This document shows, one piece after another, positions 1,548 to 8,315 of a stretch of 8,321 nt of DNA. Each line of letters starts with the position of its first letter. Position 1 is the stretch's first letter. The notes under the pieces were generated by a model. The model was not told the origin of the DNA and made no database searches. It saw nothing but the letters and a program-made list of their open reading frames with translations. Location: IMG/VR virus record IMGVR_UViG_3300029249_000159. One strand, 5' to 3'. The translations under genes were made by a program, and so were the position numbers. The DNA comes from a virus (Duplodnaviria; Heunggongvirae; Uroviricota; Caudoviricetes).

Positions 1548-1580
1548 GAAAATAAAAACAAAAACCCGCCGAAGCGGGTT
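1548..1580 (-). terminator. Rho-independent terminator downstream of hok
   Basis: 7-bp GC-rich stem (1563-1569 aacccgc pairing with 1574-1580 gcgggtt, loop cgaa) followed on the minus strand by TTTTGTTTTTATTTT (complement of 1548-1562). Confidence 0.65.
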
Positions 1581-1619
1581 AAGTGCGGGTGCGTTGAGGA
1601 TGCCTGCCACATCAGAGGT

Positions 1620-1641
1620 GGCGAGGGATTTCTCCCTCGCC
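1620..1641 (-). other. Stable hairpin in the hok 3' UTR
   Basis: Perfect 9-bp inverted repeat ggcgaggga / tccctcgcc with a 4-nt loop, 8 nt after the hok stop; no U-tract follows, so it is more likely a 3' stabilising stem than a terminator. Confidence 0.4.
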
Positions 1642-1648
1642 GGGTCTC

Positions 1649-1804
1649 TTACTCCTCAGGTTCGTAAGCTGTGAAGACAGCGACCTCCGTCTGGCCGGTT
1701 CGGATTCGTACCTCGCAGAGGTCTTTCCTCGTTACCAGTGCCGTCACTATGACGGTTAAACAGATGACGATCAGGGCGATTAACATCGCCTTTTGCTGCT
1801 TCAT
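1649..1804 (-). CDS. hokD: Hok/Gef family membrane toxin (51 aa), HokD/RelF-like
   Basis: Translation MKQQKAMLIALIVICLTVIVTALVTRKDLCEVRIRTGQTEVAVFTAYEPEE has the Hok/Gef signature (N-terminal hydrophobic helix, TRKxLCE, GxTEVA, AYE) and matches my recollection of E. coli RelF/HokD. ATG at 1802-1804 with AGGAG 9 nt upstream (complement of 1814-1818). The track ORF 1649..1843 is a TTG-initiated 5' extension of the same frame. Confidence 0.85.
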   Translation of the reverse strand: MKQQKAMLIALIVICLTVIVTALVTRKDLCEVRIRTGQTEVAVFTAYEPEE

Positions 1805-1817
1805 AGCCTGCTTCTCC

Positions 1818-2965
1818 TGTGTAAGTTCACAGAGATATTGCAATTGCCTCCGGATAAGTAAGGGGAGATTGCACTATGCAAATGCAGCATCTGATGGTTG
1901 GCTATCCTAAGTACTACCAAACGGCCGATTATGCGTTGAGGCTTTCAGTGATGGCTGATATAGCAACAATGAGAATGAAGGCTCTGCACTTCTGGGATAA
2001 ACACGGTATTTCTGCAGCTTCTGAAGCCTTTGGCGTGTCCTGCCGCACGCTTTACTGGTGGCGTCAGTTACTGAACAAGGAAGGACCTGAGGGGCTAATC
2101 CCGCACAGTAAGGCACCTCTGGTGCGACGAAAAAAACACTGGCATCCCGATGTGCTGAAAGAGATTCGACGCCTCAGGACAGAGCTGCCGAACCTCGGTA
2201 AAGAGCAGATTTTTGTTCGCCTGAAGCCCTGGTGCGAACAGCGCTATCTGGCCTGTCCGAGTGTTTCCACCATCGGCAGAATGATCGCTGCCGCACATGA
2301 TAAAATGCGGATGATACCTGTGCGTCTGGGATCGCGGGGGAAGGCACTGCTTGTCAAAAAGCGGTCTGCCAAACCCCGCAGGCCAAAGCACTACCGCCCG
2401 GTAAAGACAGGTGAGCTCATTGGGATGGACGCCATTGAGCTCAGAATGGGCGAACTGCGTCGCTATGTCATCACCATGATCGACGAATGCAGCAATTACG
2501 CGCTGGCGCTGGCTGTGCCGTCACTCAACAGTGATATCGTCAATCACTTCTTCAGCCGCGCAGCCCGGTTGTTCCCGGTCGGTATCAGCCAGATAATCAC
2601 AGATAACGGAAAAGAGTTCCTGGGAAACTTCGACAAAACGCTGCAGGAAGCCGCTATCAAACACCTCTGGACCTATCCCTACACGCCAAAAATGAACGCT
2701 ATCTGTGAACGTTTTAACCGGACGTTAAGAGAGCAGTTTATTGAATTTAATGAGATTTTACTCTTTGAAGATCTGGCGCTATTTAACCAGAAGCTGGCGG
2801 AATATCTGGTGCTGTATAACAGCAAAAGACCCCACAAGGCGCTCGCACTAATGACGCCCGTGGAATATATTTTAAAAGAGAATAAAAATTGCAATATGTG
2901 GTGGACCCATACATCTCCTTGCCTTTCGGCACGTAAGAGGCTAACCTACATGTGTCTAGCATGAA
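1818..2965 (+). mobile_element. Putative IS481-family-like insertion sequence (ends not resolved)
   Basis: Single-ORF transposase with N-terminal HTH and DDE core. A TGTGTAAGTTCACAG motif at 1818 resembles the TGT-initiated terminal repeats of IS481-type elements and a ...CTAACCTACA end lies at 2941-2950, but I could not find a convincing matching inverted repeat or target duplication by eye. Boundaries are approximate. Confidence 0.4.
1876..2964 (+). CDS. DDE transposase / integrase catalytic (rve) domain protein, IS481-family-like (362 aa)
   Basis: ATG start; N-terminal helix-turn-helix-like region (GISAASEAFGVSCRTLYWWRQ); candidate catalytic triad in rve-type spacing: D in IGMDAIE, D in ITDNGKEF, E in NAICERFNRTLREQF, followed by the conserved K/R-rich segment YNSKRPHKAL. 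Single ORF rather than the two-frame IS3 arrangement. Confidence 0.75.
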   Translation: MQMQHLMVGYPKYYQTADYALRLSVMADIATMRMKALHFWDKHGISAASEAFGVSCRTLYWWRQLLNKEGPEGLIPHSKAPLVRRKKHWHPDVLKEIRRLRTELPNLGKEQIFVRLKPWCEQRYLACPSVSTIGRMIAAAHDKMRMIPVRLGSRGKALLVKKRSAKPRRPKHYRPVKTGELIGMDAIELRMGELRRYVITMIDECSNYALALAVPSLNSDIVNHFFSRAARLFPVGISQIITDNGKEFLGNFDKTLQEAAIKHLWTYPYTPKMNAICERFNRTLREQFIEFNEILLFEDLALFNQKLAEYLVLYNSKRPHKALALMTPVEYILKENKNCNMWWTHTSPCLSARKRLTYMCLA

Positions 2966-3487
2966 ATTGGCCTCAGATTAATGTTAAGCGTCTTGCAGGA
3001 CGCGTAATGTTAACTGGGGCTTTTCTCTATCTGCCGTTGGTGTTCATGCCTGAGGCAGATAGCCTCAAGCACCCGCAGCCATTCTACTTAACTCCCGTTA
3101 CCTCGCCAATATGAAATCAGTCAGAAAGGCGATCCATAAGAACAATAGCAAGACAATAAATCGCCATTACAGCCGTAATAGCCAGCGCACATTTGAGAAC
3201 CAGCACCACAACCTCCTGTATTGGATGTACACCAGTCCTGATGAATATGAGGCTGTCTCGTCAGTGATTCAATGCAACTATTGGGTATAGTTTCTCTGAT
3301 TTTTTCTGTGGAAATGGGGCTCAACCACTAGTCACCACCAGCACTTCTTTTAATACGCAAAGTCCGACACAAGCTAACCTTCTAGTCCGCTTTGAGCGAA
3401 AAGCAGGAGTTCATAGTTTATTACCCCTGTACTGCCTCTGCTTAGGTGGTCATATCCAGTGTGCCATTATCCTGTTAGGGCTCACTA

Positions 3488-4075
3488 TTAATCATTAGTC
3501 AAATGGAATTCTGTGAGTTTTGCAACGTTTCGTTGTATTTCGAACCATGGGTATTCGCTCGATGGTGCGGCCAAGAATGGTACTATTTGTAATCGTATGG
3601 TTGGCCAACATTCTTGTCCGTTATCGAGGCGGTCGAGAAGAGCTTGATCGATTACCCATACTCCCACCGGAACATTTTCTTCTTTCAACTGATTGAAGAT
3701 TACTTCTGCGTTCTGTATGCCACCTCCATTGCCCTCAAAACTCATGCGGCCTCGCGGGAAAACATACCATTCCCCTGTGATTTGAGATTCCAGAACCAAG
3801 CTAGGGAGCCGATAGTACGTTGATGGTTGCTCCTCTATCAAAACAGATATTTTGGGTTCTTTCACAACCTTTAGCAATTTGTCCAAATCACTCCATACGT
3901 CGAATGTCTTGAATTTTTTTGGCAAATTTGCACTTAGCGAGAATTTGTCTGGTTCTTCAATCACATCTGGTATAACTTCATTCATTTGAGCTGAGGTGCC
4001 CTTCGGTTTTGAGAAATCAAGTCTGTTTGCAAGAAGTCCGGCTAAGATACTAAGGCCGAAATCATCCAGTCCCAT
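3488..4075 (-). CDS. Orphan hypothetical protein (195 aa) on a cargo segment
   Basis: ATG at 4073-4075 with GAGGAG about 10 nt upstream; 195 codons with no recognisable motif (MGLDDFGLSILAGLLANRLDFSKPK...). Hand counts of sample stretches give about 41% GC here versus about 49% in the flanking replication genes; flanking intergenic DNA also looks AT-rich by eye. Confidence 0.6.
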   Translation of the reverse strand: MGLDDFGLSILAGLLANRLDFSKPKGTSAQMNEVIPDVIEEPDKFSLSANLPKKFKTFDVWSDLDKLLKVVKEPKISVLIEEQPSTYYRLPSLVLESQITGEWYVFPRGRMSFEGNGGGIQNAEVIFNQLKEENVPVGVWVIDQALLDRLDNGQECWPTIRLQIVPFLAAPSSEYPWFEIQRNVAKLTEFHLTND

Positions 4076-4114
4076 TATGTTAAAACTCCTCGTTGGTGCT
4101 TATGCATGCTCTAA

Positions 4115-4143
4115 ACACTATGATGCCATGTGGTAACAGTCAA
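4115..4143 (-). promoter_or_regulatory. Candidate promoter for the 195-aa ORF
   Basis: Minus strand: -35 TTGACT (complement of 4138-4143), 17-bp spacer, weak -10 TAGTGT (complement of 4115-4120), about 40 nt upstream of the ATG at 4075. Hexamer match only. Confidence 0.2.
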
Positions 4144-4348
4144 AGTTGTGAGTTATTCCCTAATTTATTGATGTTGAGCAGCTTGCAGTGATGCACTGAA
4201 TTTAAGAACCAAGTAGATATATTAGACGTCTGCTCCTGGTACAAAGCGGACAACCACGCCAGATCTACCCTGTGCCATGAAAAATGAGAATGTCAATTCA
4301 CTCCTGAACTAATGCTTTTTAATCTAGTAACGTCTAAAATACCTAACA

Positions 4349-4750
4349 TTATCCCTGATAAAATGCCAGTATGCGCTGCATAACTTCACTCTTCCGGCAC
4401 TCGCGACAGATTATGTTCAGACGACTGTCGTAGCGACGTATTTCTCCGTCAGGTAATGACCAGATAAGGTCCGGATCAACCACAGCAGGTTTCTTCACCT
4501 TTGCCCTCGAGAGTTTTTTGCGGGCGTTTTGCCAGTCCTTACGCGCCTGTTCAGACGGGAATACCCCGTAGCCGGAGTTGTATACATCGCCACTGGCTAC
4601 CAGCTCTCTGGCAAGAACGCTCATCAGATATCTAGTCGCACCTGTTTTAGCTTCCAGTTGCCGTAACGTCTCACGACCGCTCTGGCGCACGAGTTCCACC
4701 ACCTGCCCTTTAATTTTTTCCCGCTCTTCTTGTGTAAAAACTTTTGCCAC
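4349..4750 (-). CDS. Hypothetical phage early protein (133 aa), downstream of replication initiator
   Basis: GTG start at 4748-4750 preceded by AAGGGGGA about 4-5 nt upstream; begins MAKVFTQEEREKIKGQVVELV...; located about 40 nt after the stop of the O-like gene, at the position a helicase loader would occupy but too short to be one. No family recognised. Confidence 0.5.
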   Translation of the reverse strand: MAKVFTQEEREKIKGQVVELVRQSGRETLRQLEAKTGATRYLMSVLARELVASGDVYNSGYGVFPSEQARKDWQNARKKLSRAKVKKPAVVDPDLIWSLPDGEIRRYDSRLNIICRECRKSEVMQRILAFYQG

Positions 4751-4790: not shown

Positions 4791-5756
4791 TTATCCCCTG
4801 AAACCAGGCGGAATTTCTGTATCCGGTTCAGAAATATGATTCACACAACGCTGTACAGGTGAACGTCCCAGGCGGATGACCAGTTCGTCCCATTTTTCGC
4901 GGAGTTTTGACGGGCTCATGATGTTTTTTACCCAGAATGGATCCCGCTGTACCCGACCAAACATTTCGCAAATTTGTCTGTGGCTTCTGCCATCCAGCAT
5001 CCGCATTGTGCGCACGTCATTGGCCCAGGCTGTCCAGTTAGGCTCTTTTGGTCGCATGATCTCTCCATCGTCGCTGGCAGCCTGTTCGTAAAGGTTCACG
5101 ATCCGCCCCCAAATCCACTGCGCACACGCCAAATCCTCCCTGCTACCCCACTGGCGTTTTTTCACACTAAACACAACCGCGTCGGGGTTCCGGGTTAAAA
5201 AATCCTGTTCAGTCGTCTGCGGGTCCGGTTGCGAAGCTTCCGGACGAAAAGTGTTTTTATTCTCTGTAGTAATCTCTGTTGTATTCTCTGTAAGATCATC
5301 AGGCCATTTTGACCCGATGACATTGGGTCGTTTTGAACCAATGGAGCGTTTCATTTTGACCTCTTCCATCGTGTCATTTTGACCTGATGGAGCGGCGCAT
5401 TTTGAACCGATGGATTCGTTCAATTTGCCACCATCTAAAAGCTCGCTCCCATAGTTGATCGTGTAGAAATTGGTCATATCGCGCTTTGATTTATTGAGCT
5501 TTTCACAACGCAAAAGCCCCAGCGTTTTCAGACTTGCAAACGCGCGCTTTAACGTTGACTCTGACCAGAATGGGAACTGTTCCAGCCATTGTTCCGTTGT
5601 GTTATAAATCCAGCGAACACCATCACATTCCATACCGGAGTTGGTATCTCTCAACCAGTAGTGCAGTTGTTGCAAAACAATGGCTTCGTTTAAGCCGATT
5701 TTCATTGCCAGCTGCGTGTTTATAACCAGTGGGCGTTCAGCAAAAAGAAGACTCAT
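4791..5756 (-). CDS. Phage replication initiator, lambda O-like / replisome-organiser family
   Basis: N-terminal winged-helix-like segment typical of phage replication initiators (LNEAIVLQQLHYWLRDTN...GVRWIYNTTEQWLEQFPFWSESTLKRAFASLKTLGLLR); central low-complexity linker (SIGSK repeats) that is encoded by a DNA iteron array, as in lambda O. Start assigned to ATG 5754-5756 (MSLLFAERPLV...), which overlaps the upstream gene by 20 nt; track start 5810 is a TTG, and ATG 5703-5705 is an alternative. Confidence 0.7.
   Translation of the reverse strand: MSLLFAERPLVINTQLAMKIGLNEAIVLQQLHYWLRDTNSGMECDGVRWIYNTTEQWLEQFPFWSESTLKRAFASLKTLGLLRCEKLNKSKRDMTNFYTINYGSELLDGGKLNESIGSKCAAPSGQNDTMEEVKMKRSIGSKRPNVIGSKWPDDLTENTTEITTENKNTFRPEASQPDPQTTEQDFLTRNPDAVVFSVKKRQWGSREDLACAQWIWGRIVNLYEQAASDDGEIMRPKEPNWTAWANDVRTMRMLDGRSHRQICEMFGRVQRDPFWVKNIMSPSKLREKWDELVIRLGRSPVQRCVNHISEPDTEIPPGFRG
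5305..5442. repeat. Iteron array (candidate prophage replication origin) inside the O-like gene
   Basis: Five to six tandem direct repeats with 23-24-bp periodicity, consensus about tCATTTTGAcCnGATGGAgcg, starting at 5306, 5330, 5353, 5376, 5399 and a degenerate copy at 5422. An AT-rich tract with TCTCTGT repeats (about 5250-5300) lies immediately 3' in the initiator's coding direction, mirroring the iterons-plus-AT-rich layout of ori lambda. Confidence 0.7.
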
Positions 5757-6258
5757 AATTCCATCCAGCTTTTTGTTGGTATTGCTGTCGATACGCAAGC
5801 TTGAAAGCAATTGCTTTTTCTATAAGTTCGTCAGTTTCACGATCTACAACGGCAGGATCTGCAAAAAGTAGTCCGGATTCCACCACATCGCCATATTCTT
5901 TATTTAACCCGGCGATCATGTACGTAATACTTTTTCCATCACTGATCTCACGATACAACCTGAAATCACTAATCCGGATAGCCTTCATAATTGCAGGCAC
6001 TAGCGCTGTGAACTTTTCACGCTTATCCCTAGTGTCGATAGCCTTCCAGCGTTCGAATATCTTCACTCGATTAACGCTAAGCGCTCGCTGATCAACCGCG
6101 CCACCTTCATATGTGACACGCTGAACATCGATGTTCGGGCGCTCTTTCAAAGCCCAGAATGCTTCAGTGATTAATATCGTCGCCTGCTCCTGTGTCATTC
6201 CTGGTCGACATATCCAGGCATCCAGAGCCTCACGAGCCTGTTCAGGAGTGATTTTCAT
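5737..6258 (-). CDS. Hypothetical early regulatory protein at the cII/YdaT position (173 aa)
   Basis: ATG at 6256-6258; immediately downstream of the cro-like gene (17-nt overlap) and upstream of the replication initiator, the position occupied by cII in lambda and YdaT in Rac. Assignment is positional only. Confidence 0.45.
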   Translation of the reverse strand: MKITPEQAREALDAWICRPGMTQEQATILITEAFWALKERPNIDVQRVTYEGGAVDQRALSVNRVKIFERWKAIDTRDKREKFTALVPAIMKAIRISDFRLYREISDGKSITYMIAGLNKEYGDVVESGLLFADPAVVDRETDELIEKAIAFKLAYRQQYQQKAGWNYESSFC

Positions 6259-6469
6259 TGTTCAACCGCCCCGCCCGCTTCGTCTTACGATATTCGTCAT
6301 AAACTTTGGGATCATACTGAAGCTCCCCGCCAGATGCCTCCTGTAGACGCATCGCGCGACCTTCAGGAACCAGTATCCCCCAAGCAGCAACACTTGCCAG
6401 TCTCACTCCTGCGGCATTGGCAAGCTTTGTTTTGCTGCCAAAAAAAGTAATTGCGTCAGCTTTAAGCAT
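6242..6469 (-). CDS. dicC: Cro-like regulator, DicC-like (75 aa)
   Basis: Divergent from the dicA-like repressor across an 80-bp operator-bearing intergenic region. ATG at 6467-6469 (track start 6472 is a TTG) with GAGGGGG 5 nt upstream. Sequence MLKADAITFFGSKTKLANAAGVRLASVAAWG... looks like a helix-turn-helix Cro/YdaS-type protein; the DicC name is by synteny and partial recollection. Confidence 0.65.
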   Translation of the reverse strand: MLKADAITFFGSKTKLANAAGVRLASVAAWGILVPEGRAMRLQEASGGELQYDPKVYDEYRKTKRAGRLNNENHS

Positions 6470-6482
6470 CAAAGCCCCCTCT

Positions 6483-6549: not shown

Positions 6550-6957
6550 ATGGATACAAGAACCCTAGGCCAGCGAGTTCTGGCGCGACGAAAAGAATTA
6601 CGCTTAACACAACGAGAAGCTGCGCGCCTCGCTGGAGTTGCTCACGTCACAATTTCACAATGGGAAAGAGACGAAACCCAGCCAGTCGGAAAACGATTGT
6701 TTGCTTTAGCGGATGCTCTGAAGTGCTCACCTACATGGCTAATGTTTGGTGACGAAGACAAGGCACCAGTGCCGGCACAAGAACTTCATGTGGAAACAGA
6801 GCTAACTCCCAACCACAAAGAATTGATCGAATTATTCGATGCTCTTCCATCTTCCGAGCAGGAAGCCTTGCTGTCTGAAATGCGCGCAAGAGTAGAAAAC
6901 TTCAACAAACTCTTCGAAGAAATGCTTAAAGCGCGTAAAAATAAATCAATAAAATAA
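6550..6957 (+). CDS. dicA: HTH XRE-family repressor, DicA-like (135 aa)
   Basis: ATG at 6550; N-terminal HTH (LRLTQREAARLAGVAHVTISQWERDETQP) and a C-terminal tail (SSEQEALLSEMRARVENFNKLFEEMLKAR) that closely resemble my recollection of E. coli DicA, same length. A TAGAAT hexamer sits only 9 nt upstream of the ATG, so the transcript may be leaderless like lambda cI from PRM (inference). Confidence 0.85.
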   Translation: MDTRTLGQRVLARRKELRLTQREAARLAGVAHVTISQWERDETQPVGKRLFALADALKCSPTWLMFGDEDKAPVPAQELHVETELTPNHKELIELFDALPSSEQEALLSEMRARVENFNKLFEEMLKARKNKSIK

Positions 6958-8089: not shown

Positions 8090-8147
8090 TGTTGATTGGT
8101 ACCTTTGGCGGCATCAGTTTCATTGCTGGCTGATGTCCGCCCTTTTT
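8090..8147 (+). ncRNA. dicF: DicF-like small regulatory RNA
   Basis: Positioned between the operon ORFs and the downstream gene start as in Qin. Contains the TTTGGCGG...ATCAGTTT core (8104-8119) and a terminal GGCGG/CCGCC stem plus CCCTTTTT (8137-8147) that match my recollection of E. coli DicF, with differences in the loop region. The 5' end is a guess (RNase processing in K-12). Confidence 0.6.
8107..8147 (+). terminator. Intrinsic terminator forming the 3' end of the DicF-like RNA
   Basis: Stem GGCGG (8107-8111) pairing with CCGCC (8137-8141) enclosing an internal structured loop, followed by CTTTTT (8142-8147). Confidence 0.55.
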
Positions 8148-8315
8148 AAAGTGAATTTTGTGATGCGGTGAATGCGGCTGAGCGCACGCGGAACAGTTAA
8201 AACCAAAAACAGTGTTATGGGTGGATTCTCTGTATCCGGCGTTAATTGTTAACTGGTTAACGTCACCTGGAGGCACCAGGCACTGCATCACAAAATTCAT
8301 TATTGAGGACGCGAT

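What the first reader, a model, noticed from the sequence alone, without database searches (positions are those of the whole stretch)
3000..4350. Slightly AT-richer cargo segment with an orphan 195-aa ORF between the replication module and hok
The 195-aa ORF (3488..4075, minus) has a good RBS, no motif I recognise, and sits in DNA that looks compositionally different from the flanking prophage genes (about 41% vs about 49% GC by hand count of sample stretches). It lies next to an IS-like transposase and a Hok toxin. Single-gene cargo at this position in lambdoid prophages is often a superinfection-exclusion or anti-phage defence function, so this is the best candidate here for an undescribed system, possibly acting alone or with hok.
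Basis: partly seen in the sequence, partly recalled or inferred. Interest (0 to 1): 0.7.

Follow-up and report, generated by a model that had tools for sequence, protein, structure and literature searches.

The report
Mobile orphan-gene cassette in phage defence hotspot
The 195-aa ORF is a real but rare protein of unknown family, carried on an 867-bp cassette with conserved palindromic ends that sits in a swap-able, defence-rich slot of Qin-like E. coli phages and also occurs in genomic islands and a transposon; a phage-defence role is likely but unproven.

Summary
The ORF (3488-4075, minus) is real. It is under purifying selection, has about 75 distant relatives in 1.8 billion proteins, and gives a confident AlphaFold core. 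It matches no Pfam, NCBIfam, PHROG or PADLOC model; its only fold relative is the uncharacterised TT1805 (PDB 1wn9).

The GC dip is real but modest: 43.1% against 47.9%, not 41 against 49.

The new result is the anatomy. The gene is the only cargo of a discrete unit, 3385-4251, bounded by two 24-bp dyad "arms" (GTCCGCT-N10-AGCGGAC). The same unit, with the same ends, occurs in an O157 island, a Citrobacter island and a Salmonella Tn3 context.

In Qin-like phages the arms are conserved and the cargo between them differs. Among 60 cargo families from arm-bounded cassettes, roughly a dozen or more match defence models (ThsB, PycC, DarT, DRT, PDC-S15/35/39). Distant homologues also sit beside AbiE, an AriA-like ATPase, PD-Lambda-4, a STAND NTPase and HNH genes.

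hok is not a partner. It belongs to the backbone and is cut from its sok leader by a strain-specific IS481 insertion.

Best reading: a stand-alone, self-promoted defence or exclusion moron. Its biochemistry is unknown.

The parts
3385..4251 (.). ORF195 cargo cassette (867 bp): L arm, 3' spacer, ORF195, 5' region with promoter-like site, R arm
   Evidence: The same unit with the same ends is found at 98.5% identity in an O157:H7 island (L002 7001-7867), and at about 89-91% in a Citrobacter braakii island (L021) and a Salmonella Tn3-like context (L022). The prophage backbone diverges from other Qin-like phages exactly inside the arms.
3385..3408 (+). L arm: a 24-bp dyad, GTCCGCT-TTGAGCGAAA-AGCAGGA (family consensus GTCCGCT.TGAGCGA..AGCGGAC)
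   Evidence: No chance matches were found in shuffles. The arm is conserved in all sampled Qin-like prophages and in three isolated phages.
4228..4251 (-). R arm: a 24-bp dyad, read on the minus strand as GTCCGCT-TTGTACCAGG-AGCAGAC (family consensus GTCCGCT.TGTGCCA..AGCGGAC)
3488..4075 (-). ORF195 coding sequence (195 aa): N-terminal hydrophobic helix (residues ~6-20), variable linker (~23-54) and a conserved alpha/beta core (55-190)
4086..4091 (-). Shine-Dalgarno sequence GAGGAG, 10 nt before the ATG
   Evidence: Read directly from the sequence.
4115..4143 (-). Sigma-70-like promoter candidate inside the cassette: TTGACT (4143-4138), 17-nt spacer, TAGTGT (4120-4115)
   Evidence: Read from the sequence. 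Both hexamers are invariant and the spacer has a single A/G difference, in the Citrobacter copy, across the four contexts. It falls below the threshold of the consensus scan, so this is an inference.
2908..3074 (-). Context: sok antisense / hok mRNA leader (backbone, not cargo)
   Evidence: Rfam RF01794, 111.9 bits, E 1.7e-25.
3117..3209 (-). Context: conserved, unannotated 30-aa hydrophobic small ORF in the backbone
   Evidence: 9 of 12 variable alignment columns fall at the wobble position, while the flanks show no periodicity. AGGAGG lies just upstream. No Pfam hit.
1819..2913 (+). Context: IS481-family insertion sequence with a 6-bp target duplication, TCTCCT
1649..1804 (-). Context: hokD coding sequence, separated from its leader by the IS
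   Evidence: Pfam HOK_GEF 2.7e-23; annotated as hokD.
4349..4750 (-). Context: DUF977 / Ren-like gene, the conserved right-hand neighbour of the slot
   Evidence: Pfam DUF977 1.6e-28; PHROG 142 'Ren-like exclusion protein' 3.5e-45.

Best explanation
SHOWN. ORF195 is the single passenger of an 867-bp gene cassette (3385-4251). The cassette is delimited by two 24-bp dyad-symmetric arms (GTCCGCT-N10-AGCGGAC) that differ in their central 10 bp: the L type has TGAGCGA and the R type TGTGCCA. It occupies a dedicated cargo slot of Qin-like lambdoid phages, between the hok/sok leader and the Ren-like DUF977 gene. In that slot the arms are conserved, the slot is never empty, and the cargo differs from phage to phage. 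Many of the alternative cargos are known or candidate anti-phage systems. The same cassette, with the same ends, has moved into non-phage islands and a Tn3-type context. In islands, such cassettes are strung together with an R arm, an 11-18-bp spacer and an L arm between neighbours.

INFERRED. The gene is expressed in the lysogen from the conserved promoter-like site carried inside the cassette. Its product acts alone as a phage-exclusion or abortive-infection factor that benefits the carrying element. The protein is acidic and cytoplasmic. It has a conserved ~15-residue N-terminal hydrophobic helix, a flexible variable linker, and a TT1805-like alpha/beta domain. In that domain the invariant Glu81, Glu96 and Trp103 and the Gly-rich strand-loop-helix (F-E/Q-G-x-G-G-G) form the probable ligand- or partner-sensing pocket. 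Some relatives carry an XRE-type HTH in place of the helix and linker. I therefore read the core as the sensor and the N-terminus as the output module, which would be membrane or partner engagement here and DNA binding in the fusions.

Cassette exchange most likely occurs by recombination within the arms. This could be site-specific, or short-homology recombination by the phage RecET-type system.
For: The gene is real. dN/dS is 0.14-0.41 between the four contexts. There are 16 clusters at 90% identity and 75 representatives at 50% identity. Nine positions are nearly invariant across 51 diverse members. The AlphaFold core has pLDDT of about 85-92.

The cassette is discrete. The arms appear, with 0 chance matches in shuffles. 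The unit ends are identical in the O157, Citrobacter and Salmonella contexts. A 76%-identical homologue also keeps an L arm.

The slot is variable. In E. coli prophages the cargo is PDC-S39/DUF4209, DUF262, AbiH, DUF5677, a 269-aa protein, two hypotheticals, or MFS+GGCT+LysR. The isolated phages Tritos, mEp460_ev081 and Evi have still other cargo between the same arms. None of 1,105 genomes has an empty slot.

The slot is defence-rich. 84 arm-bounded cassettes in IMG/VR contigs give 60 distinct cargo families. These include ThsB, PycC, DarT, RT_UG17, Drt3a, NsnA/PD-T4-2, PDC-S15, PDC-S35, PDC-S39 and Hp2. Cargo from other arm-bounded slots matches HEC-08 and Drt1b.

Distant homologues are associated with defence genes and have no conserved partner. 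Neighbours include AbiEi/AbiEii, HNH_5 and SNF2, an NsnB/AriA-like ATPase, PD-Lambda-4_A and a NERD helicase, a 1,910-aa STAND NTPase, HNH_2 twice, a YobI ATPase, and HsdM_N and DUF2726.

The promoter-like site is conserved in all four contexts. HTH_3 fusions are seen in P0034 and P0078.
Against: No model of any known or candidate defence protein matches (PADLOC, E up to 1). No homologue was found in 50,697 phage records or in BFVD. The only structural relative has no known activity.

The majority of the 60 cargo families in such slots showed no listed PADLOC match. Some cargo is clearly not defence, such as the TonB-receptor/ABC iron-uptake operon, the MFS/LysR set and an acetyltransferase. 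Neighbourhood evidence is therefore suggestive only.

The gene is rare, occurring in 38 of 5,426 E. coli genomes. The N-terminal helix is too short for a transmembrane segment (best 19-residue Kyte-Doolittle mean 0.98), and its role is a guess. No canonical terminator or strong consensus promoter was found. The recombination mechanism at the arms is not established: there are no target duplications, folding of the composite sites is inconsistent, and no recombinase lies nearby in the window.
Confidence: 0.45

Rival explanations
1. ORF195 is an anti-defence or inter-element conflict factor. The acidic protein would bind and neutralise a host or rival-element immune or restriction component, helping the carrier element establish itself, rather than protecting the cell from phages.
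For: The protein is acidic (pI 4.7, net charge about -9) and has no catalytic signature. It is carried on conjugative and integrative elements near DUF932, antirestriction and RadC modules, and near T4SS genes (TraG_N, DUF2274). It is a stand-alone small gene with its own promoter.
Against: The acidity is moderate and far from that of DNA mimics. In phages the gene sits in the slot used for lysogen-expressed defence cargo, not in an early anti-defence region. Its immediate neighbours in distant taxa are mostly defence genes. The DUF932 and antirestriction genes are simply the fixed architecture of those islands.
Confidence: 0.17
2. ORF195 is a non-immune accessory (fitness or regulatory) moron. 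The core domain would sense a small molecule or host protein and modulate host physiology such as stress, envelope or colonisation. The defence-like neighbourhood would reflect only the general cargo nature of the slot.
For: Arm-bounded slots also carry iron-uptake, transporter, regulator and acetyltransferase cargo. HTH-fused relatives look like one-component regulators, and one of them sits among efflux, TetR and RHS genes. E. coli carriers are mostly bovine or STEC strains.
Against: The gene is repeatedly adjacent to Abi, STAND, HNH and ATPase defence genes in unrelated taxa. No metabolic or virulence partner is conserved. The patchy distribution with frequent horizontal transfer is typical of conflict genes.
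Confidence: 0.2
3. ORF195 works together with hok as a two-gene toxin-based exclusion module.
For: The two genes are close in this window, with ORF195 about 580 bp from hokD once the IS is removed.
Against: The cassette occurs without hok in the O157 island, the Citrobacter island and the Salmonella Tn3 context. hok/sok is present in 1,735 genomes, nearly all of which lack ORF195. Here hok is detached from its promoter and sok-controlled leader by IS481.
Confidence: 0.02
4. ORF195 is a core phage function (replication or nin-region accessory), or a decaying ORF with no function.
For: The gene is co-oriented with the early-right operon, and no terminator was predicted between DUF977 and the ORF.
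Against: It is absent from nearly all related phages and replaced there by unrelated genes. It occurs outside phages. It shows purifying selection and deep conservation.
Confidence: 0.03

Closest known systems
Morons of lambdoid phages (extra, independently expressed genes between conserved genes; concept of Juhala/Hendrix, cited from my own knowledge)
   Same: The gene is an extra gene between conserved neighbours that is absent or replaced in relatives. It has a lower GC content, its own promoter-like site, and plausible lysogen expression.
   Different: Here the moron is a discrete unit with conserved 24-bp dyad ends. These ends are shared by many unrelated cargos and are also found, in arrays, in non-phage islands. 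No canonical terminator was found.
Defence hotspots of P2-like phages and P4-like satellites (Rousset et al. 2022, PMC9122126; Vassallo et al. 2022, PMC9519451)
   Same: A fixed position in a temperate-phage backbone holds a highly diverse, mostly single-system cargo that is rich in anti-phage genes and hypothetical proteins.
   Different: The phage family and position differ (between the hok/sok leader and the Ren-like gene of Qin-like lambdoids). The cargo is framed by specific palindromic arms, and the same framed cassettes recur outside phages. I found no description of this slot or motif in the searchable literature.
Integron gene cassettes and Xer-dependent pdif modules
   Same: Small, mostly single-gene units with conserved imperfect-palindromic boundary sites. 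They are arrayed head-to-tail, carry very diverse cargo, and the same cassette is seen in different replicons.
   Different: The arms have no attC-type R''/R' cores (GTTRRRY), and there is no IntI, attI or Pc nearby. Gene orientation is random (45 against 37). One arm sits at each end rather than one site per cassette. The arms do not resemble dif (consensus from memory). The recombinase is unknown.
TT1805 of Thermus thermophilus HB8 (PDB 1wn9), a structural-genomics 'hypothetical protein'
   Different: Identity is 11-12%. It was not detected by a profile search of PDB sequences at E up to 10. TT1805 lacks the N-terminal helix and linker, and its function is unknown, so it gives no mechanism.
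Single-protein defence candidates that occupy the same slot (PDC-S39/DUF4209, AbiH, NsnA-like DUF262)
   Same: They occupy the same genomic position between the same arms and have a stand-alone architecture.
   Different: There is no sequence or fold relationship to ORF195.

Membership tests
Lambdoid-phage moron | An extra gene between conserved genes, absent or replaced in closely related phages | tested here: met
   Eleven other Qin-like prophages or phages keep the flanks but carry different cargo.
Lambdoid-phage moron | Own promoter and terminator flanking the gene | tested here: inconclusive
   TTGACT-17-TAGTGT has both hexamers invariant in four contexts, but it falls below the scan threshold, and no intrinsic terminator was found downstream.
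Lambdoid-phage moron | Base composition deviating from the neighbours | tested here: met
   42.9% GC against 47.7-50.7% for the adjacent replication genes. The difference is modest and not unique in the window.
Known or candidate anti-phage defence systems (PADLOC-DB v2) | Match to a defence-protein HMM | tested here: not met
   0 families at E up to 1.
Known or candidate anti-phage defence systems (PADLOC-DB v2) | Recurrent location beside defence genes or in defence hotspots | tested here: met
   Slot cargo includes ThsB, PycC, DarT, DRT and PDC-S15/35/39. Homologues sit beside AbiE, an AriA-like ATPase, PD-Lambda-4_A, a STAND NTPase and HNH_2.
Known or candidate anti-phage defence systems (PADLOC-DB v2) | Protection against phage infection | not testable with these tools
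   This needs cloning and phage challenge.
Integron gene cassette | attC site with inverse core RYYYAAC and core GTTRRRY | tested here: not met
   The arms read GTCCGCT-N10-AGCGGAC. No GTTRRRY core is present at the boundaries. The attC consensus is taken from my own knowledge.
Integron gene cassette | Adjacent intI integrase with attI and Pc | tested here: not met
   No integron integrase is annotated within 9 kb in the identical prophage.
Transposon-like mobile insertion cassette / MITE | Terminal inverted repeats | tested here: met
   The 22-24-nt arms are 77% complementary.
Transposon-like mobile insertion cassette / MITE | Target-site duplication flanking the unit | tested here: not met
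   The flanks differ on the two sides in all four contexts.
Hok/Sok type I toxin-antitoxin (ORF195 as a component) | Obligate co-occurrence with hok/sok | tested here: not met
   The cassette is found without hok in L002, L021 and L022. hok/sok is found without ORF195 in more than 1,700 genomes.
TT1805-like fold (PDB 1wn9) | Same fold over most of the domain | tested here: met
TT1805-like fold (PDB 1wn9) | Detectable sequence-profile homology | tested here: not met
   1wn9 is not among the PDB hits at E up to 10 with the family profile.
Membrane-anchored superinfection-exclusion proteins (SieB / Imm / Cor type) | Transmembrane segment, signal peptide or lipobox | tested here: not met
   The best 19-residue Kyte-Doolittle mean is 0.98. 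The hydrophobic run is only 11-15 residues, the N-terminus is acidic, and there is no Cys lipobox.
Class I release-factor GGQ domain (PrfH / ArfB-like) | GGQ motif and a match to the RF-1 domain | tested here: not met
   The only evidence is a weak PrfH alignment (E 0.39). The motif is GGG, not GGQ. None of 51 members hits RF-1 at E up to 1, and no release factor appears among the fold matches.

The most novel reading that the evidence does not exclude
Enterobacterial temperate phages and genomic islands share a previously undescribed gene-cassette exchange system. Cargo genes, many of them immune systems, are framed by two heterotypic 24-bp dyad sites (L and R, 7-10-7). A dedicated recombinase swaps them between replicons by double site-specific recombination, a natural analogue of recombinase-mediated cassette exchange. 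The candidate recombinase is the 200-aa catalytic-domain-only tyrosine recombinase embedded in such arrays in the E. coli Nissle and AVS0501 islands. ORF195 would be one such cassette and would encode a new single-protein anti-phage factor with a TT1805-like sensor domain.
Probability: 0.2. Interest if true: 0.85.

Novelty: new variant of a known kind. Interest (0 to 1): 0.66.

Why it matters
If ORF195 protects against phages, it adds a new single-protein immune family with a fold of unknown function. It would also give the TT1805 fold its first biological role.

The framing arms matter independently of that. They give a simple 24-bp sequence handle for harvesting hundreds of cargo genes from lambdoid phages and islands: 60 families came from only 84 cassettes, most of them uncharacterised. 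They also point to a mechanism by which defence genes shuttle between phages, islands and transposons. That makes the question of how prophage hotspots exchange their cargo directly testable.

Tried and rejected
- Family searches: Pfam, NCBIfam, PHROGs and PADLOC gave nothing for ORF195. Scanning all 51 diverse members against Pfam gave only the HTH and FliG_C fusion partners.
- PDB sequence-profile search: only sub-threshold hits, to PrfH around the Gly-rich loop, ArsC and Alba. The release-factor idea was rejected: the motif is GGG not GGQ, there is no RF-1 hit, and there is no fold match.
- TT1805 literature: the text search gave no functional information linked to 1wn9.
- Accession and motif literature searches gave no paper.
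- Locus searches: the search for related loci with the wide alignment failed because it has no conserved 7-mer. P0005 was not on record.
- Arms as one long hairpin or terminator: folding of the composite sites is inconsistent (z from -4.2 to +1.0), there is no T-run, and Rfam finds nothing.
- Arms as transposon ends: there are no target duplications.
- Second shared cassette: the 269-aa cargos of the prophage slot and of the Nissle island are unrelated.
- Empty slot: none was found in 1,105 genomes.
- Larger ORFs in 3075-3385 (59 aa on the plus strand, 67 aa on the minus strand): their frames do not fit the substitution pattern, whereas the 30-aa minus-strand ORF does.
Full report
**1. What the window is**

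The window is the early region of a Qin-like lambdoid prophage of E. coli integrated next to rspB. The finding's 1,351-bp segment (3000-4350) is 100% identical to NZ_CP090612; the whole window aligns to that record at about 97%.

On the minus strand it carries the following genes:
- a Cro-like gene (6242-6472)
- a YdaT-like gene (5737-6258)
- an O-like replication initiator (4791-5810)
- a DUF977 / 'Ren-like' gene (4349-4750)
- the 195-aa ORF (3488-4075)
- hokD (1649-1804)
- rem (1168-1431)

A cI-like repressor (6550-6957) lies on the plus strand.

**2. Check of the observation**

The ORF, its coordinates, its strand and its RBS are as described: GAGGAG at 4091-4086, 10 nt from the ATG.

The GC claim is partly right. 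The segment 3000-4350 is 43.1% GC, against 47.9% for 4791-6469 and 47.8% for the whole window. It lies in the lowest 2% of equally sized windows. The difference is 4.8 points, not 8, and several true phage genes here are equally or more AT-rich.

The 'IS-like transposase' is an IS481-family element spanning 1819-2913. It is absent from otherwise near-identical prophages such as strain R1. It carries a 6-bp target duplication, TCTCCT, which is the hok Shine-Dalgarno sequence read on the other strand. The insertion separates the hok coding sequence from its sok/mok leader, which Rfam finds at 2908-3074 (112 bits).

A further 310 bp (3075-3384) is conserved backbone present in 1,735 E. coli genomes.

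**3. The protein**

ORF195 has no hit in Pfam, NCBIfam, PHROGs or PADLOC. Every source calls it hypothetical.

The family is small:
- 16 clusters at 90% identity among 5.8 billion proteins
- 75 representatives at 50% identity among 1.8 billion proteins, 54 of them with E below 1e-10
- members scattered over Enterobacteriaceae, Burkholderiales, Pseudomonas, Ferrimonas, Pectobacterium, a Chlamydiae MAG and a Spirochaetota MAG

The gene is real. dN/dS is 0.14-0.41 among the four enterobacterial contexts. Across 51 diverse members, E81, E96, W103, F106, G115, G119, G153, W157 and P166 are at least 90% conserved, within the signature IE(D/E)xPST ... V(L/I)E(S/D) ... EWYVFxRGRxxF(E/Q)GxGGG.

AlphaFold2 gives a confident alpha/beta core for residues 55-190, with pLDDT about 85-92. 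Residues 1-51 are low-confidence and contain only a short helix at 8-18.

The N-terminal segment (D)FGLSxLAxxLAN is conserved even in distant members. It is hydrophobic rather than amphipathic (mean hydrophobicity 0.57, hydrophobic moment 0.21) and too short for a transmembrane helix (best 19-residue Kyte-Doolittle mean 0.98). The protein is acidic, with pI 4.7.

The Gly-rich motif sits in the loop between strand 3 and helix 1. This geometry is often used to bind phosphate or other ligands; that reading is an inference.

Two representatives replace the N-terminal helix and linker with an XRE-type HTH (P0034, P0078), and one carries FliG_C. This suggests that the core is a sensor or interaction module joined to interchangeable output modules.

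**4. The cargo unit and its ends**

Only 38 of 5,426 complete E. coli genomes carry the gene. Ten of these have it in this prophage position and 28 have it elsewhere.

In O157:H7 FRIK944 and related strains, an 872-bp stretch (window 3385-4256) recurs at 98.5% identity in a non-phage island, between IS66 copies and a YeeP-like GTPase/dynamin/patatin cluster. In Citrobacter braakii the gene lies in a CP4-like island. In Salmonella it lies between the resolvase genes of a Tn3-type element.

In all three, similarity to the window begins at 3385-3389 and ends at 4252-4256. These ends are an imperfect inverted repeat (0.01 chance matches expected):
- 3385-3406, GTCCGCTTTGAGCGAAAAGCAG
- 4230-4251, CTGCTCCTGGTACAAAGCGGAC

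Each arm is itself a dyad, GTCCGCT-N10-AGCGGAC. From 65-66 unique examples, the consensus is GTCCGCT.TGAGCGA..AGCGGAC for the L arm and GTCCGCT.TGTGCCA..AGCGGAC for the R arm.

In islands, neighbouring cassettes are separated by an R arm, an 11-18-bp spacer (often ending CTGAGCTGAAG) and an L arm. Examples are three boundaries in the Citrobacter locus, two each in the E. coli Nissle and AVS0501 islands, and three in another prophage. A 76-bp composite site finds full-length copies in 680 E. coli genomes, 1-6 per genome, always unannotated.

The arms are absent from the non-enterobacterial loci that carry homologues. The framing system is therefore narrower than the protein family.

**5. The slot**

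Alignment of other Qin-like prophages shows that the backbone is conserved up to and including the outer approximately 15 nt of the L arm, and resumes at the R arm. The DNA between the arms is unrelated from one prophage to another.

| Cargo between the arms | Source |
|---|---|
| PDC-S39 / DUF4209 | E. coli prophage |
| NsnA-like DUF262 | E. coli prophage |
| AbiH | E. coli prophage |
| DUF5677 | E. coli prophage |
| 269-aa protein | E. coli prophages |
| two hypotheticals | E. coli prophage |
| MFS + GGCT + LysR | E. coli prophage |
| other, different cargo | isolated phages Tritos, mEp460_ev081, Evi |

No empty slot exists among 1,105 genomes. From memory, K-12 Qin has relBE at the corresponding place; I did not test this.

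Eighty-four cassettes had both arms and ranged from 367 to 5,827 bp. Their longest ORFs fall into 60 families, in either orientation.

PADLOC matched, among these 60 families, ThsB, PycC, DarT, RT_UG17, Drt3a, NsnA/PD-T4-2 (two families), PDC-S15, PDC-S35, PDC-S39, a CARF protein and Hp2. Other arm-bounded cargo matched HEC-08 and DRT type 1. This is therefore a defence-rich cargo system. It is not exclusive, because the Nissle island has a TonB-receptor/ABC iron-uptake operon between two sites.

**6. Neighbourhoods of distant homologues**

There is no conserved partner gene. The immediate neighbours are repeatedly defence-type:
- AbiEi/AbiEii, HNH_5 and an SNF2 helicase in Collimonas
- an NsnB/AriA-like AAA_15 ATPase in Pseudomonas simiae
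- PD-Lambda-4_A and a NERD helicase in a metagenome contig
- a 1,910-aa STAND NTPase
- HNH_2 in two unrelated contexts, with a weak TIR_2 nearby
- a YobI ATPase in Citrobacter
- HsdM_N and a relaxase in the Spirochaetota MAG, and TraG_N with DUF2726 in Pectobacterium
- the end of an integrative conjugative element, next to its integrase

**7. How it most likely works**

Shown: ORF195 is a discrete, horizontally exchanged, single-gene cassette in a defence-rich, always-occupied phage slot, and it has no obligatory partner.

Inferred:
- Expression is from a promoter-like site inside the cassette, TTGACT-17-TAGTGT at 4143-4115, whose hexamers are invariant in all four contexts. No terminator was predicted between DUF977 and the ORF, so read-through from the early operon after induction is also possible.
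- The protein acts alone. Its conserved core senses a ligand or a phage or host protein. The N-terminal hydrophobic helix is the output or docking element.
- The result is exclusion or abortive infection.

I put 0.45 on this whole reading. I put about 0.9 on the cassette and slot anatomy taken alone.

Exchange probably occurs within the arms. In the window, the outer part of each arm carries the phage-type base (T at position 8), and the inner part matches the island copy. This rests on very few diagnostic bases. Whether exchange is site-specific or short-homology recombination is open.

**8. Rivals**

- Anti-defence or inter-element conflict factor, 0.17
- Non-immune accessory or regulatory moron, 0.20
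- Partnership with hok, 0.02, contradicted by the distribution
- Core phage function or dead ORF, 0.03

**9. Comparison with what is known, and novelty**

The unit behaves like a lambdoid moron and like the P2/P4 defence hotspots (PMC9122126, PMC9519451). It resembles integron or pdif cassettes in being framed and arrayed. It fails the defining tests of integrons (no attC cores, no IntI), of transposon-like cassettes (no target duplication), and of all defence families in PADLOC v2.

I found no paper mentioning the protein accessions or the arm motif in the searchable library. That library is incomplete.

I rate the finding a new variant of a known kind: a hotspot moron from an undescribed protein family, in a cassette framing that I could not find described.

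Noticed in passing
window 1819-2913 (IS) with 1813-1818 and 2914-2919 (duplication): The IS481-family element inserted exactly at the hokD Shine-Dalgarno sequence; the target duplication TCTCCT is AGGAGA on the hok strand. This leaves the hok coding sequence with an SD but cuts it off from its promoter and its mok/sok leader (2908-3074). Related prophages lack the IS. hok is probably silenced here, as at IS-disrupted hok loci of K-12 (the K-12 comparison is from memory).
   Followed up: yes
window 3117-3209, minus strand: An unannotated 30-aa hydrophobic ORF, (M)VLVLKCALAITAVMAIYCLAIVLMDRLSD, with AGGAGG just upstream. It lies in backbone DNA shared by about 1,700 E. coli genomes. 9 of 12 variable alignment columns fall at its wobble position (binomial P about 0.004), while the flanks show no periodicity. 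It has no Pfam hit. It could be a small membrane or toxin-like peptide next to hok/sok.
   Followed up: partly
L033 9116-9718 and L034 4858-5460 (E. coli Nissle and AVS0501 islands): A 200-aa tyrosine recombinase with a catalytic domain only (Pfam Phage_integrase 5e-19) sits inside arrays of arm-bounded cassettes. It is a candidate for the enzyme that moves them. Co-occurrence with the arms was not tested.
   Followed up: no
L033 1272-7015 (E. coli Nissle island): An L arm and an R arm frame a 5.7-kb TonB-dependent receptor / ABC transporter iron-uptake operon. The framed cassettes are therefore not restricted to single genes or to defence.
   Followed up: partly
L016, L017, L018 (one Spirochaetota MAG): Three copies of an HTH_3-fused homologue (223 aa) lie on three contigs, next to a TrwC relaxase, an HsdM_N-only gene and an integrase. 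This suggests a repeated small mobile element whose regulator uses the ORF195 core domain.
   Followed up: no
window 8094-8142 (+), 8154-8294 (+), 1559-1640 (-): Sub-threshold Rfam matches to DicF (38.8 bits against a gathering score of 48), STnc100 and isrK. The DicF-like hit fits the Qin-type dicB region seen in the related record.
   Followed up: no
L001 (NZ_CP090612.1, 'plasmid pDCE7-1', 420 kb): The record with the identical locus is labelled a plasmid but carries this prophage integrated next to the chromosomal gene rspB. It is predicted non-mobilizable. It may be a misassigned chromosomal segment.
   Followed up: no
window 4076-4229 and 3409-3487: The non-coding parts of the cassette differ by only about 6-9% between E. 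coli, Citrobacter and Salmonella. That is no more than the synonymous divergence of the ORF (dS 0.11-0.15). It hints at constrained regulatory sequence beyond the promoter-like site.
   Followed up: partly
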